IMG/VR virus record: IMGVR_UViG_3300026472_000012
Location: 1 to 40,053 of that record
Reading direction: 5' to 3' (one strand)
DNA from: a virus
DNA length: 40,053 nucleotides
Below, in pieces: positions 19,219 through 24,600 of the stretch. Numbering within the stretch: the stretch's first letter is position 1; each line of letters begins with the position of its first letter. The notes beneath the pieces are model-generated. The model was not told the DNA's origin and made no database searches. It worked only from the letters and a program-made list of their open reading frames with translations. The position numbers and the translations under genes are program-made.

Positions 19219-19457
19219 AGTGCCACCTTAAATAATTCTTTTGCCTTGTCTGACGGTACATAGCCTTTCGGGGAGCAGTTGTCCTTAATTAACCAGCCTG
19301 CATCAGCCAATTCGCTCAAGTGGCGCTGAGATGATCTAGGACTCAATCCAACCAATTGGATTAAATCATTTGTACCAATCCGTCTTTTATTGTTGACTGC
19401 AAAACTTATGATTTGTGCATAAGTATTGAAGTGTTCAACATGTGATTTATTTCTCAC
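19215..19457 (-). CDS. Small winged-helix/HTH DNA-binding protein
   Basis: 80 aa with LIQLVGLSPRSSQRHLSELADAGWL. Confidence 0.55.
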   Translation of the reverse strand: MRNKSHVEHFNTYAQIISFAVNNKRRIGTNDLIQLVGLSPRSSQRHLSELADAGWLIKDNCSPKGYVPSDKAKELFKVAL

Positions 19458-20206
19458 ACCCCACCCCCTTGTCCCATTCGTTGATCACCCCAGTTACACT
19501 CAACCAAAGTCAGTCCATCGTGTTGAAAGCGTGACCACAACCGATCACCCAAATCTTTTTTGAGTTCTTCAAGCGTGAAATTTGAAATCAACATGGTTGC
19601 CTTGCCCTCGTCATAACGTGAGTACAAAACCTTGTGAACCAGTTGCAATCTATTCTCATGGCGATCATGCAAACCATATTCATCAAGAATCAGTAAGTCA
19701 TATTCAGTAAAGCGGTAAATCGCATTAGCTTCGCTGTCATCCGTTCTTTTCCAAGCATTCGCAATCTCATTAGCCATGTCCTCAGAAGTGATGTAGCGCG
19801 CTGATTTGCGCTTATCCAACACGTTTAAAGCCACGGCACTAGAAAGATGTGTTTTGCCTGTACCAGTACGACCAACCATGATCAGATTACGAATCACACC
19901 ACCCAAGAAATCTTTAGCAAACGACATGCATTGAGCTTTTGCATTGCGTTGACCTTCGTTTGAAACCTGATAATTACCAAACCCACTTTCAGCATGGCGT
20001 AGCGGTAATTGCGCCCCAGCAAAGTGTTTTTCACGAACCATGGTATTTACTGCGTGATGATGATCTTTTTGACCACGATCAAGTGATTCAAGTGAACACT
20101 GTTTGCAAAACGATTTACCACGGTAAGAAACCATTTGAACTTGATGTTTCGTGCAGAACTCCGTTGAACTCGTAATTTCTAAATCTAGTAAAGTCATCGC
20201 GTTCAT
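19454..20206 (-). CDS. DnaC/IstB-like AAA+ replication (helicase loader) protein
   Basis: Walker A GRTGTGKTH, Walker B LLILDEYG, and an N-terminal Cys/His cluster. Confidence 0.8.
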   Translation of the reverse strand: MNAMTLLDLEITSSTEFCTKHQVQMVSYRGKSFCKQCSLESLDRGQKDHHHAVNTMVREKHFAGAQLPLRHAESGFGNYQVSNEGQRNAKAQCMSFAKDFLGGVIRNLIMVGRTGTGKTHLSSAVALNVLDKRKSARYITSEDMANEIANAWKRTDDSEANAIYRFTEYDLLILDEYGLHDRHENRLQLVHKVLYSRYDEGKATMLISNFTLEELKKDLGDRLWSRFQHDGLTLVECNWGDQRMGQGGGV

Positions 20207-21096
20207 AGCATCCCCTCACAATCCAGATCATCCGTTGCAGGTTTGTACTGCTGAACATCACCCCAAGCATCGTTTACGTTTCGAGTTGGCGCTTTGCTCG
20301 TTTGTTTTTCAGTACGATCAATCTTGTCCAAGTGCTTTTCAAATTCTTGAATCAACCATGCAGCAAATTTTCTTGTACGTTGGTTTTCAGTCAGATCAAT
20401 TTTGTTTTCCCAATGCGCATTGAAATTACCCAAGTGAAAATTGAAATCAGCAAGGGATAAAATTTCCTCACAGCGTTGGCTAAATTTTGTTTGCGATAAA
20501 ATGGTTTTTAGAAAATTAATATTCGGTTTCCAAGAATTTTCAGACACGCTCTCTTGTGTGTGTATTTCTTTAATATTTTCTTTTAAATATATTTCTTTTA
20601 CAGAGTGACATTTGATGTCACTAGTACCAGTGACATTTGATGTACCCACACCAGTATCATTTAATGTAACTACATTTAATGCACCAGTATCATTTGATGT
20701 TACTAGTTCAGGTTTAATTCGATCCTCAAATGTGACCGTATAAATTGTCGCTTTACCCAAATTTTTAGTGATACGAACTAACTGAAATTTTGCTAAATCA
20801 GCCATACTTTTACGTACAGTTCTTTTGTCTTTGAAGCCCGTCAATTTCATAACTAAAGCTTCGCCAATAGATTTATTATCTCCGTGAAAGCCCTTAATGT
20901 GACGATTTAAAAGGACAAGGCATTTGATTGCCTCACCACTTAAAGCACTTAAATAACCCTCATCACAGATAAAATTAGGCATTGGAGTATAGCCCTCTTC
21001 TTTCTTCGACATAGCTTGTCGCTCTTTTTTTGGAAATTGAACCAGCTCTCCTTGTGGGATCGGTGGTTCATGTGCTAAATTTGTTTTCATATTCAT
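20203..21096 (-). CDS. Replication initiator (lambda O-like, winged-helix N-terminus) containing the origin
   Basis: 297-aa ORF upstream of the loader, with an iteron array inside the coding sequence. Confidence 0.65.
   Translation of the reverse strand: MNMKTNLAHEPPIPQGELVQFPKKERQAMSKKEEGYTPMPNFICDEGYLSALSGEAIKCLVLLNRHIKGFHGDNKSIGEALVMKLTGFKDKRTVRKSMADLAKFQLVRITKNLGKATIYTVTFEDRIKPELVTSNDTGALNVVTLNDTGVGTSNVTGTSDIKCHSVKEIYLKENIKEIHTQESVSENSWKPNINFLKTILSQTKFSQRCEEILSLADFNFHLGNFNAHWENKIDLTENQRTRKFAAWLIQEFEKHLDKIDRTEKQTSKAPTRNVNDAWGDVQQYKPATDDLDCEGML
20601..20705. repeat. Iteron array (putative ori) inside the initiator gene
   Basis: GTGACATTTGATGT at 20605 and 20630; CCAGTATCATTTAATGT at 20651; a degenerate copy near 20668; CCAGTATCATTTGATGT at 20684. 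An AT-rich stretch at 20560..20600 lies next to the array. Confidence 0.7.
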
Positions 21097-21410: not shown

Positions 21411-21602
21411 CTATGCTGATAAGGCTTGAAGATCAGCTTTTAATTTGCCTTTAGTTAGAACTTGAATTCGTGCTTGAGTGTCTACTGGAATGCCTCTATG
21501 TCGCCATTTGCTAATAGTTCCTCTCGTGACCCCAAGAATTGTTTTTGTGAGCTGGATATCGTTCTCAACTCTAAAATGCATTTTTAAATCATCAACTGTC
21601 AT
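21411..21602 (-). CDS. cro: Cro-like HTH repressor
   Basis: 63 aa with TKTILGVTRGTISKWRHRG. It is divergent from the CI gene across the operator region. Confidence 0.75.
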   Translation of the reverse strand: MTVDDLKMHFRVENDIQLTKTILGVTRGTISKWRHRGIPVDTQARIQVLTKGKLKADLQALSA

Positions 21603-21603
21603 G

Positions 21604-21685
21604 GTTTACCTTTATAAACTTTTAGTTTCCATTAGTAAACCATAAGTTTATTTCTAAATCAATATGAATGTTTACTATAGGAAAC
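21604..21685. promoter_or_regulatory. OR-type divergent promoter/operator region
   Basis: 16-bp sites GTTTACCTTTATAAAC (21604..21619) and GTTTACTATAGGAAAC (21670..21685), plus the palindrome TAAACCATAAGTTTA (21636..21650). Confidence 0.65.
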
Positions 21686-21703
21686 ATTAAAGAGGATGTT
21701 TTT

Positions 21704-22447
21704 ATGAGCACTATCAGTGATCGAATAATTCAAAGAATGACTGAGCTAAAAATTCGACAAGTTGATTTAGTTGAAGCTACAGGTGCAACTAAAGGCGCAG
21801 TCTCAAAATGGGTGGCTGGGACTAATATCCCTAAAGCTGAATTTTTATCACCTTTAGCAAATGTGCTTAAAACTTCTCAAAATTGGTTATTAACTGGCGA
21901 AAATGATCAAAGAAAAAATAACTTCAATATGCAGGAGTTTATGGATAAACACGGATTGACTCGAAAAGAAGAATCTTCTTTTGATGTCAATGAGATTCAT
22001 GAGCCTACTGTTGTTGACTATGAAATTGAAAATGGATTTATTTGGATAGATGTAGTGGAAGCGAACTTTTCATGTGGTACAGGTGAGTCGATAGAGTTTC
22101 ATTTTGATGTCATTAATGGAAAGTTCCCCTTTCCTCCATCATTTTTTCAAAAAAAATATGTTGACCCTAAATGCATGAGAATCATTAAAGCTAAGGGTGA
22201 CAGCATGTCTGACTTTATTCATGACGGCGACTTAGTAGGAATTGATATTTCTCAAACCGAAATAATAGATGGTGAAATTTATGCTGTTTATTTTGAAGGT
22301 GAAGGCATGATTAAGCAGATATTTAAAGAAGAAGGTGGAAAGTTAAGTCTTCACAGCCTTAATCCTAAATACCGTGATCGTGAAGTGAGTGAAATCAACG
22401 GGTTGAACTTTAAAGTAATGGGGCGTCAATTTTGGCGAGCTGGATAA
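21704..22447 (+). CDS. cI: CI-type repressor (XRE HTH N-terminus + S24 LexA-like peptidase C-terminus)
   Basis: Start ATG 21704 follows AGAGGA. Contains the HTH VDLVEATGATKGAVSKWVAG and the S24 motifs GDSMSDF...GEIYAV...GMIKQI. Confidence 0.9.
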   Translation: MSTISDRIIQRMTELKIRQVDLVEATGATKGAVSKWVAGTNIPKAEFLSPLANVLKTSQNWLLTGENDQRKNNFNMQEFMDKHGLTRKEESSFDVNEIHEPTVVDYEIENGFIWIDVVEANFSCGTGESIEFHFDVINGKFPFPPSFFQKKYVDPKCMRIIKAKGDSMSDFIHDGDLVGIDISQTEIIDGEIYAVYFEGEGMIKQIFKEEGGKLSLHSLNPKYRDREVSEINGLNFKVMGRQFWRAG

Positions 22448-22476: not shown

Positions 22477-22782
22477 ATGATCGCAACACTTAATAAATAC
22501 AAAACTGCGCTAACAATTAATCGTCAAGAATTCAAATTGGCCTTAGCTAAAATTGGTGCAGGAATTGATAAAAAAATAGCCTCGCTTAAAAAAGCCAAGC
22601 AAAGCTATGACGCTGCGGAAATTGCACGTGAGGTCATTACCGAAGCAAACATCTTTGAGGCCATTATTGAGGGCTTTAACGAAGCAGAAGAAACCAATCT
22701 AAAACTAACTGACATAACCAATCTTGATGTGGCACAAGGATGGATAGATGAGTTTTTGGAAACGTATTCAGAAATAGAATAA
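22477..22782 (+). CDS. Hypothetical helical protein co-oriented with cI
   Basis: 101 aa, starting 30 nt after the cI stop. The N-terminal half is basic and the C-terminal half acidic. Confidence 0.6.
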   Translation: MIATLNKYKTALTINRQEFKLALAKIGAGIDKKIASLKKAKQSYDAAEIAREVITEANIFEAIIEGFNEAEETNLKLTDITNLDVAQGWIDEFLETYSEIE

Positions 22783-22856
22783 TTTACTTTATGTATTAAA
22801 AAACTGCGAACCCGACGCAGTCCTTATAATGATCGGGTAAACTTTTGGAGTACTTC

Positions 22857-23348
22857 ATGGGTGGTAATAGGATATTCATTGATTCAGATGATGGAAAAAA
22901 AATATTGGAAATGCCAAAGTACTTTGATTCACCAGTTACTATGGCAAGAGATATAAATAAATATTCATTCCATCATTTTTCTGGTGCTCCAGTTTATGAG
23001 TTATCAACTGATCTAAATATTGTTGGATTAAGTATATTTTTGCGAACTAATATTGCTCCAGACTCAATGAAGCACAGTTTTGGGTTGATGCAAAAAGTAG
23101 GAAATAATAAAAAATGGATATATGATTTATGTATTTATCCTGAACACCAAAAATCACATGTAGATAAAATGAAACGTGAGGTTTTCTATGGTCCACATGT
23201 GCATTGCCTTGATAATGCTTATGAAATAAAGTTAAGTTATGGAATTGATGAGTGGGATAAATGGTTTCATTTTTTTGCGAAAAACATTAATTTGCAGGTT
23301 AGGTCAAGTGATATAATGGGACCTCTTGCAGGGGAGTTGCCACTATGA
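22857..23348 (+). CDS. ORFan protein A of the immunity-region cassette (possibly DUF6978-like, weak recollection)
   Basis: ATG 22857 lies 6 nt after GGAG; the track start at 22845 is TTG. It has a His-rich C-terminal motif, IYPEHQKSHVDK...FYGPHVH, and overlaps the next gene by ATGA. Confidence 0.6.
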   Translation: MGGNRIFIDSDDGKKILEMPKYFDSPVTMARDINKYSFHHFSGAPVYELSTDLNIVGLSIFLRTNIAPDSMKHSFGLMQKVGNNKKWIYDLCIYPEHQKSHVDKMKREVFYGPHVHCLDNAYEIKLSYGIDEWDKWFHFFAKNINLQVRSSDIMGPLAGELPL

Positions 23349-24055
23349 CTATGCATCTTTCAGATACAGTCTTGAATGCTTTTATCCAAAAATTTTCTGA
23401 TCAGGAGAATTCTTGTGGCTTCACTCTACCTTTAATATTTCCAAATGGATCACCAGCAGTCGTCTATGCTCGTAAGGACACGAAAGATAACATAATTCTA
23501 AGTGATTATGGATTAAATGTCCGTCACTTCGATGAGTCTGTTGGTGTTATGGATTTTGATGCTATTGATAAGATTAAGTATTTTTGTAAATCTTATGAAT
23601 CTATATCAATGCAAAGTGGTTGCTTGATTGCTGTATCATCAATGAAGCAATTAGACTTTACTGTAATTGAATATACAGAACTGTTAAGTAAGTTAATTAA
23701 CTATCAATATAAATCTAGATCACATCAAGCAATTGATGAAATTTTAGATTCAATCAGAGTTGTTTTGGAAAAAAAGTTTTCATCGATAGAGGTTAGCCCA
23801 AAGTTGGTTGGAAGATCAGGCGAGAAATACCCATTCAACTTCTCACATAACAACACGTTTATTGATTATATTCAAGCAGATAAGAATAAAACAAATAATC
23901 AGTTGAGAAAAATGATAGATACTCAAAACTTAAATACAAATGTGTCATTCAATATTATTATTGATGATCTTGAGAATGATAAATATAAATCTGAACAAAC
24001 TATTCTCTCTGATTATGCTGTAGTCCAACCTTTGTCAAAATTTTTAGCTATTTAA
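23345..24055 (+). CDS. ORFan protein B of the immunity-region cassette (DUF1828/DUF1829-like architecture, by recollection)
   Basis: 236 aa, translationally coupled to protein A. N-terminal FTLPLIFPNGSPAVVYARKDTKDNIILSDYG and C-terminal VGRSGEKYPFNFS recall the DUF1828 + DUF1829 arrangement. Confidence 0.6.
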   Translation: MTMHLSDTVLNAFIQKFSDQENSCGFTLPLIFPNGSPAVVYARKDTKDNIILSDYGLNVRHFDESVGVMDFDAIDKIKYFCKSYESISMQSGCLIAVSSMKQLDFTVIEYTELLSKLINYQYKSRSHQAIDEILDSIRVVLEKKFSSIEVSPKLVGRSGEKYPFNFSHNNTFIDYIQADKNKTNNQLRKMIDTQNLNTNVSFNIIIDDLENDKYKSEQTILSDYAVVQPLSKFLAI

Positions 24056-24075: not shown

Positions 24076-24100
24076 AACCCAACCCTGTGTGGGTTTTCTT
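24076..24100 (+). terminator. Intrinsic terminator after the cassette
   Basis: AACCCA-ACCCTGTG-TGGGTT followed by TTCTTTC. Confidence 0.65.
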
Positions 24101-24139
24101 TCAACTCACATCAACAAAAACCCAAGAAGAATCTATCTT

Positions 24140-24466
24140 ATGGAAACCGTATCATTTTTATGTCTATTAACCCTTTCTATATTCGGTTGCGATAAACCAG
24201 AGCAAATTTCACCTGAGCGTGAAAAACTTATTGAAAAATATCAAGAAGTTGATTTAAAAATGACAATGTATCTTGGAACTCTAGCAGGACCTTCTACGCC
24301 CTTAGAAGAACGCAAAAAAGTTATTTGTGAGGAATTCCCTGTTACCTATGAACAAGAATACCTTCCAATTTATCTAAAGCTGTCTGATCCAACAGATGTT
24401 GATACAAGTTCGGATCTTCTAAAAACAATTGAATCTTATAAAGCTAGATACAATATTCAGTGCTAA
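24140..24466 (+). CDS. Small lipoprotein (moron; candidate superinfection exclusion factor)
   Basis: Start ATG 24140 gives METVSFLCLLTLSIFGC, a signal peptide with a lipobox-like IFGC. The gene is bounded by two near-identical terminators. Confidence 0.6.
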   Translation: METVSFLCLLTLSIFGCDKPEQISPEREKLIEKYQEVDLKMTMYLGTLAGPSTPLEERKKVICEEFPVTYEQEYLPIYLKLSDPTDVDTSSDLLKTIESYKARYNIQC

Positions 24467-24486: not shown

Positions 24487-24512
24487 AACCCACCCAGTGT
24501 GGGTTTTCTTTT
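24487..24512 (+). terminator. Intrinsic terminator after the lipoprotein gene
   Basis: AACCCAC-CCAGT-GTGGGTT followed by TTCTTTTG. The sequence closely resembles the terminator at 24076. Confidence 0.7.
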
Positions 24513-24529: not shown

Positions 24530-24600
24530 GTTTCCAAAAATAAAAATAAAGTTTCTTAAAATAAACTTTTTATTGACAATAAAGTTTCCTTTGGTAAACT
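24530..24600 (+). promoter_or_regulatory. OL-type operators and early-left promoter
   Basis: TTGACA (24573..24578), 16-nt spacer, TAAACT (24595..24600). Operator-like GTTTCTTAAAATAAAC (24551..24566) and GTTTCCTTTGGTAAAC (24584..24599) share the GTTT-N8-AAAC pattern of the OR sites. Confidence 0.6.

What the first reader, a model, noticed from the sequence alone, without database searches (positions are those of the whole stretch)
22477..24055. ORFan cassette in the rexAB-equivalent slot between cI and the OL-type operators: candidate prophage-encoded defence/exclusion system
Three co-oriented genes follow cI: 22477..22782, 22857..23348 and 23345..24055. They lie before an intrinsic terminator at 24076 and the second operator/promoter region at 24530..24600. 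This is the position and orientation of lambda rexA-rexB (PRM-cI-rexA-rexB-terminator-OL/PL). A gene here would be expressed in the lysogen. The last two genes are ATGA-coupled, which suggests a two-component unit. Protein A has a His-rich motif (IYPEHQKSHVDK...FYGPHVH). Protein B looks like a two-domain DUF1828/DUF1829-type protein. I do not recognise either as part of a described defence system. The cassette looks more AT-rich than the flanking regulatory genes.
Basis: partly seen in the sequence, partly recalled or inferred. Interest (0 to 1): 0.8.

Follow-up and report, generated by a model that had tools for sequence, protein, structure and literature searches.

The report
Prophage repressor-linked two-gene defence candidate
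Two coupled genes of unknown function sit just after the repressor gene of an Acinetobacter prophage, in a slot where related prophages carry known anti-phage systems, so the pair is most likely an untested lysogen-expressed defence system.

Summary
The window carries cro(-), three operators, cI, a 101-aa gene (g1), a 163-aa gene (B, 22857..23348), a 236-aa gene (C, 23345..24055, ATGA overlap), a terminator, a small lipoprotein ORF, a second terminator and a second three-operator cluster on a promoter. This is the lambda OR-cI-rexAB-OL layout.

The unit has two genes, not three. B and C were adjacent and co-oriented in every locus examined (about 36), from Acinetobacter, Pseudomonas, Burkholderia and Helicobacter phages and metagenomes (GC 36-65%). 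Nearly all lie directly downstream of an HTH-S24 repressor. g1 is an independent, widespread gene.

In 88 related Acinetobacter prophage loci the same slot is hypervariable. It holds IetAS, PD-Lambda-5, RosmerTA, NsnA/PD-T4-2-like, Lamassu-like and restriction/methylase cassettes.

C is a DUF1828/DUF1829 protein and matches PADLOC's untested candidate PDC-M24B. B belongs to a tiny family (22 representatives among 1.84 billion) with a conserved SH...YGxHxH motif and matches PDC-M24A only marginally.

Neither protein resembles RexA or RexB, and neither has a membrane segment. Structure models were low confidence, so the mechanism is inferred only. The best reading is a prophage-borne, PDC-M24-like defence or exclusion pair. 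It is a good candidate for experiment but is not proven.

The parts
21411..21602 (-). cro-type regulator, divergent from cI
   Evidence: PF14549 P22_Cro, E=3.4e-9.
21604..21685 (.). OR-like region with three operator-like 16-mers (GTTTMC-N4-RKAAAC) at 21604, 21625 and 21670
   Evidence: Pattern search. The sites occur only here and at 24530..24599 in the 40-kb window.
21668..22447 (+). cI-type repressor (HTH + S24 autopeptidase). The likely true start is ATG 21704, 8 nt after AAGAGG. It is the first gene of the lysogenic operon.
   Evidence: PF00717, E=2e-22; phrog_4, E=7e-49. Sequence read.
22477..22782 (+). g1: a 101-aa acidic helical protein (phrog_15679), co-transcribed but not part of the B-C unit
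   Evidence: phrog_15679, E=3.9e-57. About 200 IMG/VR loci carry it. Only 11 of 88 g1 loci have B-C.
22857..23348 (+). B: a 163-aa soluble, mostly beta protein. Conserved features are K21, HSF73-75, an acidic residue at 90, S100-H101, G112-x-H114-x-H116 and a C-terminal P-x-x-GEL tail. It is the small partner of the pair.
   Evidence: phrog_2017, E=1e-13. The family has 22 representatives in 1.84e9 proteins. Alignment A4. No membrane segment.
23345..24055 (+). C: a 236-aa DUF1828/DUF1829-type two-domain protein, translationally coupled to B by an ATGA overlap
   Evidence: phrog_1960, E=1.4e-18; PADLOC PDC-M24B, E=1.9e-6. DUF1828 in 8 of 9 and DUF1829 in 3 of 9 family members. BFVD DUF1828 phage protein, E=5e-10.
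24079..24101 (+). Intrinsic terminator ending the cI-g1-B-C transcription unit
   Evidence: Hairpin 24081..24095 plus T-run. It is 91% identical to the repeat at 24489..24511.
24140..24466 (+). Lipoprotein-like ORF (lipobox LSIFGC). It is the conserved right border of the variable slot and is not part of the pair.
   Evidence: Translation. Cluster c1 is present in 29 related loci downstream of different cassettes.
24487..24511 (+). Second intrinsic terminator, a direct repeat of the first
24530..24600 (+). OL/PL-like region: three operator-like sites (24530, 24551, 24584) overlapping a TTGACA-16-TAAACT promoter that points rightward into the early genes

Best explanation
B (22857..23348) and C (23345..24055) are a two-protein anti-phage defence or superinfection-exclusion module carried in the immunity region of an Acinetobacter prophage.

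Inferred steps:
1. They are read through from the repressor's maintenance promoter as cI-g1-B-C, so they are made in the lysogen together with the repressor.
2. They are translated in a coupled fashion and act as a complex.
3. C (an N-terminal DUF1828 domain and a C-terminal DUF1829 domain with a possible restriction-endonuclease-like fold) binds nucleic acid or a phage product.
4. B supplies or controls a metal- or histidine-dependent activity through its conserved acidic residue and SH...YGxHxH site.
5. Infection by a heteroimmune phage is then aborted or its DNA is attacked.

Shown here: gene structure, operon layout, strict pairing, linkage to repressors, the hotspot nature of the slot and the homology to PDC-M24B. 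Inferred only: expression, complex formation, nuclease chemistry and the defence phenotype.
For: 1. Layout. The order is OR operators, cI, g1, B, C, terminator, then OL/PL, with no + strand terminator before 24081.

2. Pairing. B is immediately followed by C on the same strand in all 23 loci fetched through C and next to every remote B homologue examined:
- L103, L106, L109, L111, L115, L116 and L118;
- Pseudomonas phage P7869, Burkholderia phage phi644-2 gp48/gp47 and a Helicobacter pametensis prophage;
- Acinetobacter phage Acba_11.
Identities fall to about 20-25% and GC ranges from 36% to 65%.

3. Mobility. The pair travels independently of the repressor type. cI identity to the window ranges from 84% to 20% while C stays at 74-90%. 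A cI-type HTH-S24 gene still lies upstream on the same strand in 24 of 28 loci by HMM, and in two more (L002, L022) by inspection.

4. Hotspot. In 88 related loci anchored on g1 the slot shows about 60 different architectures. These include IetA/IetS (E=4e-72 and 7e-49), PD-Lambda-5 A/B (E=5e-219 and 4e-121), RmrA (E=4e-123), NsnA/PD-T4-2_A, Hp1/Hp2, PDC-M68B/LmuB-like, an ABC-ATPase plus methyltransferase, and type II REases. HipA-like kinase and YejK/NA37 cassettes are also present.

5. Candidate family. C and its relatives match PADLOC PDC-M24B (E=1.9e-6 down to 6e-10). PDC-M24 is a two-gene candidate, with A at about 151 aa followed by B at about 255 aa. It was found embedded in BREX/DISARM/type I RM loci, with 153 occurrences. 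Sizes and gene order agree with B followed by C.

6. Composition. B-C is AT-rich relative to the prophage, as expected for an acquired moron.
Against: - No experiment exists for this pair or for PDC-M24, which is listed as untested.
- The window's B protein has no PADLOC, Pfam or NCBIfam hit. B-family members match PDC-M24A only marginally (E=4.7e-4, 0.018 and 0.023).
- The AF2 models are low confidence (pLDDT 60.6 and 62.8). Foldseek found nothing for B. For C it found only weak local similarities to nuclease-like folds (FAAP24 ERCC4, MspJI, VC1899, Rpb5-N, DUF2726) and to KilA-N/BRO-N.
- The canonical PD-(D/E)xK residues are not conserved in the C alignment, so a catalytic nuclease in C is doubtful.
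- The near-obligate linkage to cI could instead point to a lysogeny-related role.
Confidence: 0.6

Rival explanations
1. B-C serves the prophage's own lysogeny circuit rather than defence. It might modulate repressor cleavage, induction or establishment, or act as an addiction (toxin-antitoxin) module that stabilises the prophage. That would explain why it is nearly always attached to a cI-type repressor gene.
For: - Nearly every context found places the pair directly downstream of an HTH-S24 repressor, in phages whose other genes are unrelated.
- Coupled two-gene architecture with the small gene first is also typical of type II TA modules.
- One relative lies beside a TacA1 antitoxin gene (L116).
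Against: - Most related prophages with the same cI/g1 lack B-C and carry defence systems in its place (11 of 88 have it). It is therefore dispensable for the lysogeny circuit.
- The pair moves between very different repressor types.
- Relatives of C define a candidate found embedded in BREX/DISARM/RM loci outside prophages.
- TA-type addiction and abortive-infection defence are not mutually exclusive.
Confidence: 0.2
2. B and C are two unrelated lysogenic-conversion morons with no joint function and no anti-phage role, for example host physiology or virulence modifiers.
For: - Neither protein has an assigned function.
- The lipoprotein ORF next door shows that other kinds of moron live in this region.
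Against: - Adjacency, order and frequent start/stop overlap are kept across Gamma-, Beta- and Epsilonproteobacterial phages at 20-30% identity.
- Every B homologue found has a C homologue next to it.
- Both proteins are soluble and cytoplasmic with no signal peptide.
Confidence: 0.08
3. The three genes g1-B-C form one three-component system.
For: They are co-oriented, closely spaced and lie in one predicted transcription unit in the window.
Against: - g1 is absent from roughly half of the B-C loci and from all remote ones.
- g1 precedes dozens of other cassettes.
- g1 stays 92% identical where B and C drop to 39% and 45% (L002, L023).
Confidence: 0.05

Closest known systems
PADLOC candidate PDC-M24 (CAS_00098, FAM_00129>>FAM_00065; Payne et al., bioRxiv 10.1101/2024.01.29.577857)
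   Same: - It is a two-gene cassette with a small first gene (model about 151 positions) and a second gene of about 255 positions.
- C and its relatives match PDC-M24B significantly (E=1.9e-6 to 6e-10).
- It was predicted as defence from genomic context only.
   Different: - The window's B does not match PDC-M24A, and B-family members do so only marginally.
- PDC-M24 was defined from cassettes embedded in BREX/DISARM/type I RM loci. This branch is prophage-borne and tied to the cI repressor.
- Neither has been tested experimentally.
Lambda RexA/RexB
   Same: - Same slot and orientation: between cI and OL/PL, and apparently co-transcribed with the repressor in the lysogen.
- Two genes.
- The expected role is exclusion of other phages.
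   Different: - No sequence relationship was found, and no RexA or RexB model was listed in the PADLOC hits at E<=0.1.
- From general knowledge, RexB is a polytopic membrane protein. B and C have no hydrophobic segment.
- The gene sizes differ.
HipAD / DS-6 (DefensePredictor, PMC13092281)
   Same: The second protein (DS-6B) carries DUF1829, the domain weakly detected in the C family. That system is a validated two-gene defence system.
   Different: - The partner there is a HipA-like kinase, and DS-6B also has DUF3037.
- B is not a kinase.
- C shows no profile similarity to the partner gene of the HipA_2-like cassette that sits in the same slot in L045.
Prophage defence hotspots (for example P2/P4 hotspots, and repressor-adjacent BstA and sieB; recalled from general knowledge)
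   Same: A variable slot is bounded by conserved phage genes, and alternative defence cassettes are exchanged there.
   Different: The hotspot here is the cI-downstream slot of Acinetobacter lambdoid prophages. The B-C occupant has no assigned mechanism.

Membership tests
PADLOC PDC-M24 (candidate, untested) | Second gene matches a PDC-M24B model | tested here: met
   Window C hits PDLC04540 at E=1.9e-6, covering 25-190 of 236 aa against 26-195 of 256 profile positions. Remote C relatives score E=6e-10 to 4e-6. Acba_11 C gives no hit.
PADLOC PDC-M24 (candidate, untested) | First gene matches a PDC-M24A model | tested here: inconclusive
   Window B gives no hit at E<=0.1. Among family members the best values are 4.7e-4, 0.018 and 0.023. 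Size (151-position model) and gene order agree.
PADLOC PDC-M24 (candidate, untested) | Cassette found embedded in or next to BREX/DISARM/type I RM systems | tested here: not met
   All contexts found here are prophage immunity regions, plus one beside a TacA1 gene.
Pfam DUF1828/DUF1829 two-domain proteins | N-terminal DUF1828 (PF08861) above threshold | tested here: inconclusive
   The window protein scores E=0.043, 14.6 bits against a cut-off of 22. Eight of nine family members match, best E=2.2e-10. Precomputed PF08861 annotation is present on P0015 and on the neighbours in L109, L111 and L116.
Pfam DUF1828/DUF1829 two-domain proteins | C-terminal DUF1829 (PF08862) | tested here: inconclusive
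   Three of nine members match, best E=6.7e-4. There is a weak precomputed hit in L115. The window protein itself gives no hit.
Lambda RexAB | Sequence homology to RexA and RexB | tested here: not met
   No Rex model appeared among the PADLOC hits at E<=0.1, and there are no Pfam hits.
Lambda RexAB | One component is a polytopic membrane protein (RexB) | tested here: not met
   The maximum 19-residue Kyte-Doolittle mean is 1.1 for both B and C.
Lambda RexAB | Located between cI and OL/PL and co-oriented with cI | tested here: met
Lambda RexAB | Expressed in the lysogen and excludes other phages | not testable with these tools
   This needs RNA-seq and plaque assays.
PD-(D/E)xK nucleases (for the C-terminal domain of C) | Conserved D ... 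(D/E)xK catalytic residues on the beta2/beta3 hairpin | tested here: not met
   In alignment A5 the beta2 position is N/D/S/Q/H, and the beta3 motif is ID-x-x-K/Q/E/S. The invariant residues are instead D174, R188, K189, D208 and E217. Fold similarity is only weak and local, on a low-confidence model.
Type II toxin-antitoxin modules | One protein is toxic and the other neutralises it | not testable with these tools
   Only the coupled two-gene architecture is seen.

The most novel reading that the evidence does not exclude
B-C is a widespread, repressor-linked exclusion system of temperate phages of Proteobacteria. It would be a soluble, non-membrane functional counterpart of RexAB. Two protein families with no known chemistry (a His-motif beta protein and a DUF1828/DUF1829 protein) would sense superinfection and stop it by a mechanism not yet seen in any characterised defence system.
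Probability: 0.35. Interest if true: 0.75.

Novelty: new variant of a known kind. Interest (0 to 1): 0.55.

Why it matters
- If B-C is active, it gives a first function to DUF1828/DUF1829 proteins paired with a tiny, unannotated His-motif family.
- It would validate the untested PADLOC candidate PDC-M24.
- It would show that a rexAB-like lysogen-expressed exclusion slot recurs in Acinetobacter, Pseudomonas, Burkholderia and Helicobacter phages.
- Prophage-borne defences in Acinetobacter bear on phage-therapy host range.
- The cI-downstream slot mapped here, bounded by cI/g1 on one side and the lipoprotein gene on the other, also holds several other unassigned cassettes and is a compact place to look for new systems.

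Tried and rejected
- **Direct annotation.** Pfam, PADLOC, PHROGs and NCBIfam scans of the window proteins gave only unknown-function PHROGs, a sub-threshold DUF1828 match and PDC-M24B.
- **PDB by sequence.** Profiles of both families found nothing meaningful.
- **Structure.** AF2 models built on the shallow alignments allowed were poor (pLDDT about 60-63). Foldseek against PDB gave no hit for B. For C it gave only weak local nuclease-like hits. BFVD confirmed DUF1828 phage relatives and gave weak KilA-N/BRO-N, Rpb5-N and DUF2726 hints. I do not treat any of these as established.
- **Motif reading of B.** I compared it from memory with HNH/His-Me, HIT, 2H-phosphoesterase and cupin signatures. 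None fits the conserved positions, so B is left unassigned.
- **PD-(D/E)xK reading of C.** The canonical residues are not conserved.
- **Three-gene system.** Rejected.
- **Kinship of C with the HipA-partner genes in the same slot.** Rejected.
- **Wider presence.** E. coli genomes have no DNA match to a relative. Plasmid hits are Acinetobacter only.
- **Literature.** Searches found no paper on DUF1828 function or on PDC-M24 beyond its listing as a candidate.
- **Genome-contig scan.** The back-translated patterns returned only one locus. Taxonomic breadth therefore rests on the representative search and on the phage records.
Full report
**1. What is in the window**

The region is the immunity region of a lambdoid Acinetobacter prophage. 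The exact C protein is on record from Acinetobacter guillouiae.

Order of features:
- A P22_Cro-type gene at 21411..21602 on the minus strand (PF14549, E=3.4e-9).
- An HTH + Peptidase_S24 repressor on the plus strand. The ORF is 21668..22447, and the likely start is ATG 21704, behind AAGAGG (PF00717 E=2e-22, phrog_4 E=7e-49).
- g1 at 22477..22782 (101 aa).
- B at 22857..23348 (163 aa).
- C at 23345..24055 (236 aa), overlapping B as ATGA.

No plus-strand intrinsic terminator is predicted from cI to the hairpin at 24081..24095. After that come a lipoprotein-like ORF (24140..24466, lipobox LSIFGC) and a second terminator. That terminator is a 91%-identical copy of the first.

A 16-mer, GTTTMC-N4-RKAAAC, occurs three times between cro and cI (21604, 21625, 21670). 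It occurs three times again at 24530, 24551 and 24584, and nowhere else in 40 kb. I derived the pattern from these regions, so the count is partly circular. The last copy overlaps a TTGACA-16-TAAACT promoter-like site that points into the rightward early genes.

The layout is therefore OR-cI-(g1-B-C)-terminator-(lipoprotein)-terminator-OL/PL. This is the same arrangement as lambda OR-cI-rexA-rexB-OL/PL.

B-C is 31.2% GC against 37.6% for the window, in the lowest 1.4% of equal-sized windows.

**2. The unit is two genes**

Loci fetched through C (23 loci: IMG/VR contigs, one GTDB genome and phage Acba_11) all have B directly upstream of C on the same strand. g1 is present in only about half of them. 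The repressor in these loci ranges from 84% to 20% identity to the window's, or is not detected by tblastn.

A local HMM finds an HTH-S24 ORF upstream on the same strand in 24 of 28 B-C loci. In two more (L002, L022) a divergent S24-type repressor is visible by eye.

g1 is a separate gene:
- About 200 IMG/VR loci carry it at 86-96% identity.
- Only 11 of 88 g1 loci have B-C.
- g1 stays 92% identical where B and C fall to 39% and 45% (L002, L023).

**3. The pair is old and widespread**

An exhaustive profile search with the B family found only 22 representatives at E<=0.001 among 1.84 billion. Every remote B homologue whose context could be read has a 234-257-aa gene immediately downstream. That gene aligns with C (A5) and often carries a precomputed DUF1828 or DUF1829 hit.

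| Locus or phage | Context |
|---|---|
| L103 (NCBI assembly) | Cro, S24 cI, then B, C |
| L106 | cII-like, cI, two small genes, then B, C |
| L109 | cI, then B, C |
| L111 (65% GC) | B, then DUF1828 gene |
| L115 | B, then a gene with a weak DUF1829 hit |
| L116 | beside a TacA1 antitoxin gene |
| L118 | Cro, cI, then B, C |
| Pseudomonas phage P7869 | Cro, CI, hypothetical protein, DUF1828 protein |
| Burkholderia phage phi644-2 | gp48/gp47 |
| Helicobacter pametensis prophage | HTH regulator, 160-aa protein, DUF1828 protein |

The B and C HMMs confirm the three phage pairs (E=1e-22 to 1e-30 for B, E=1e-35 to 1e-67 for C).

**4. What the proteins are**

C:
- DUF1828 is found in 8 of 9 diverse members (best E=2.2e-10) and DUF1829 in 3 of 9 (E=6.7e-4). 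The window protein itself is sub-threshold.
- It matches phrog_1960.
- It matches PADLOC PDC-M24B (E=1.9e-6 for the window protein, down to 6e-10 for relatives).
- Invariant residues across the family are P29, G35, P37 and D54 in the N-terminal domain, and F164, D174, L187-R188-K189, D208, E217 and L221 in the C-terminal domain.

B:
- It has no Pfam, PADLOC or NCBIfam hit and matches phrog_2017.
- Conserved positions across the family are K21, HSF73-75, L77, an acidic residue at 90, S100-H101, G112-x-H114(-x-H116), F140 and a C-terminal P-x-x-GEL tail.
- A few family members touch PDC-M24A marginally (E=4.7e-4, 0.018, 0.023).

Both proteins are soluble.

The AF2 models were poor (pLDDT 60.6 and 62.8). 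Foldseek gave nothing for B. For C it gave a DUF1828 phage protein (E=5e-10). It also gave weak hints of a KilA-N/BRO-N-like part and a restriction-endonuclease-like part (FAAP24 ERCC4, MspJI, VC1899, Rpb5-N, DUF2726). The canonical PD-(D/E)xK residues are not conserved, so I treat the nuclease idea as a lead only.

**5. Context evidence for defence**

*The slot is a hotspot.* Between g1 and the conserved lipoprotein or early genes, 88 related loci show about 60 different architectures. Representatives match known systems:
- IetA/IetS.
- PD-Lambda-5 A and B.
- RmrA (RosmerTA).
- NsnA/PD-T4-2_A.
- Hp1/Hp2.
- PDC-M68B/LmuB-like.
- AriA/PtuA/GajA-like ATPases with a methyltransferase.
- Type II restriction enzymes.
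- A PD-Lambda-2_C-like protein.

Others carry HipA_2-like kinases, a YejK/NA37 protein or DUF6731. Domains of the first two kinds were recently validated in defence (PMC13092281).

*PDC-M24 has an independent origin.* PDC systems are cassettes found embedded inside BREX, DISARM or type I RM loci and are listed as untested candidates. PDC-M24 is a two-family cassette with 153 occurrences (bioRxiv 10.1101/2024.01.29.577857).

**6. Interpretation**

The best explanation (about 0.6) is a lysogen-expressed two-protein defence or exclusion module. It is a prophage-borne and divergent branch of PDC-M24, sitting where lambda keeps rexAB. It is not a Rex homologue, because there is no sequence match and no membrane component.

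The mechanistic sketch is that the two proteins form a complex, that C acts as the nucleic-acid- or phage-factor-binding part, and that B's His/acidic site acts as effector or switch. This is inference.

Two further observations fit the idea that B is the part facing phage variation, but do not prove it. B evolves faster than C in every comparison. B also keeps a conserved C-terminal tail.

The main rival (about 0.2) is a role in the lysogeny circuit or prophage addiction, suggested by the near-obligate linkage to S24 repressors. Against it, most sister prophages replace B-C with defence systems, and the pair moves between repressor types.

**7. Novelty and score**

The kind of thing, a defence cassette co-transcribed with a prophage repressor in a variable slot, is known. 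The C family is already flagged as an untested candidate.

What this analysis adds:
- The partner family B.
- The strict pairing.
- The repressor linkage across three classes of Proteobacteria.
- The map of the hotspot.

The mechanism is unknown and could be new. Interest is 0.55.

Noticed in passing
window 24140..24466, with 24079..24101 and 24489..24511: A lipoprotein-like ORF (METVSFLCLLTLSIFGC...) sits between two 91%-identical 23-nt terminator repeats, inside the immunity region. Homologues (cluster c1) lie downstream of many different cassettes in 29 related loci. It may be a separate moron, for example a surface exclusion protein.
   Followed up: partly
window 22477..22782: g1 (phrog_15679; 101 aa, acidic, helical) follows cI in about 200 IMG/VR Acinetobacter prophage loci at 86-96% identity, whatever cassette comes next. 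It is more conserved than cI itself, and its function is unknown.
   Followed up: partly
L077:7995-8936, L045:3316-4224, L025:6382-8039, L066:6410-8717, L030:6467-7348: The same cI-downstream slot holds cassettes with no PADLOC v2 match (the L077, L045 and L066 genes; L025 and L030 were not scanned). These are a HipA_2-like kinase plus an unknown partner, a YejK/NA37-like protein plus a 432-aa protein, and DUF6731. They resemble systems validated only recently (HipAD and YejK domains, PMC13092281).
   Followed up: partly
protein P0027: This is a 246-aa protein with an HATPase_c_3 N-terminal part whose last ~30 residues are nearly identical to the C-terminus of the C family. It looks like a cassette-replacement junction inside the 3' end of gene C, or an assembly chimera.
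   Followed up: no
L006:5519-5869: B is truncated to 117 aa while the adjacent C is intact at 88% identity. This could be a decaying copy or a sequencing error.
   Followed up: no
L017:457-936: A repeat protein with an N-terminal hydrophobic (signal/anchor-like) segment, which to my eye resembles the Ltp superinfection-exclusion family, lies directly upstream of B-C where other loci have cI/g1. The contig ends there. NCBIfam gave no hit.
   Followed up: partly
L116:105-383: One remote B-C pair lies next to a TacA1-type antitoxin gene on the opposite strand rather than next to a repressor. It is the only non-repressor context seen, on a short contig.
   Followed up: no
window 19454..21096 (- strand): The replication module lies leftward of cro. 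It comprises a 297-aa protein and a 250-aa protein with a Walker A motif (GRTGTGKTHL) that looks like an IstB/DnaC-type helicase loader. It was read from the translation only.
   Followed up: no
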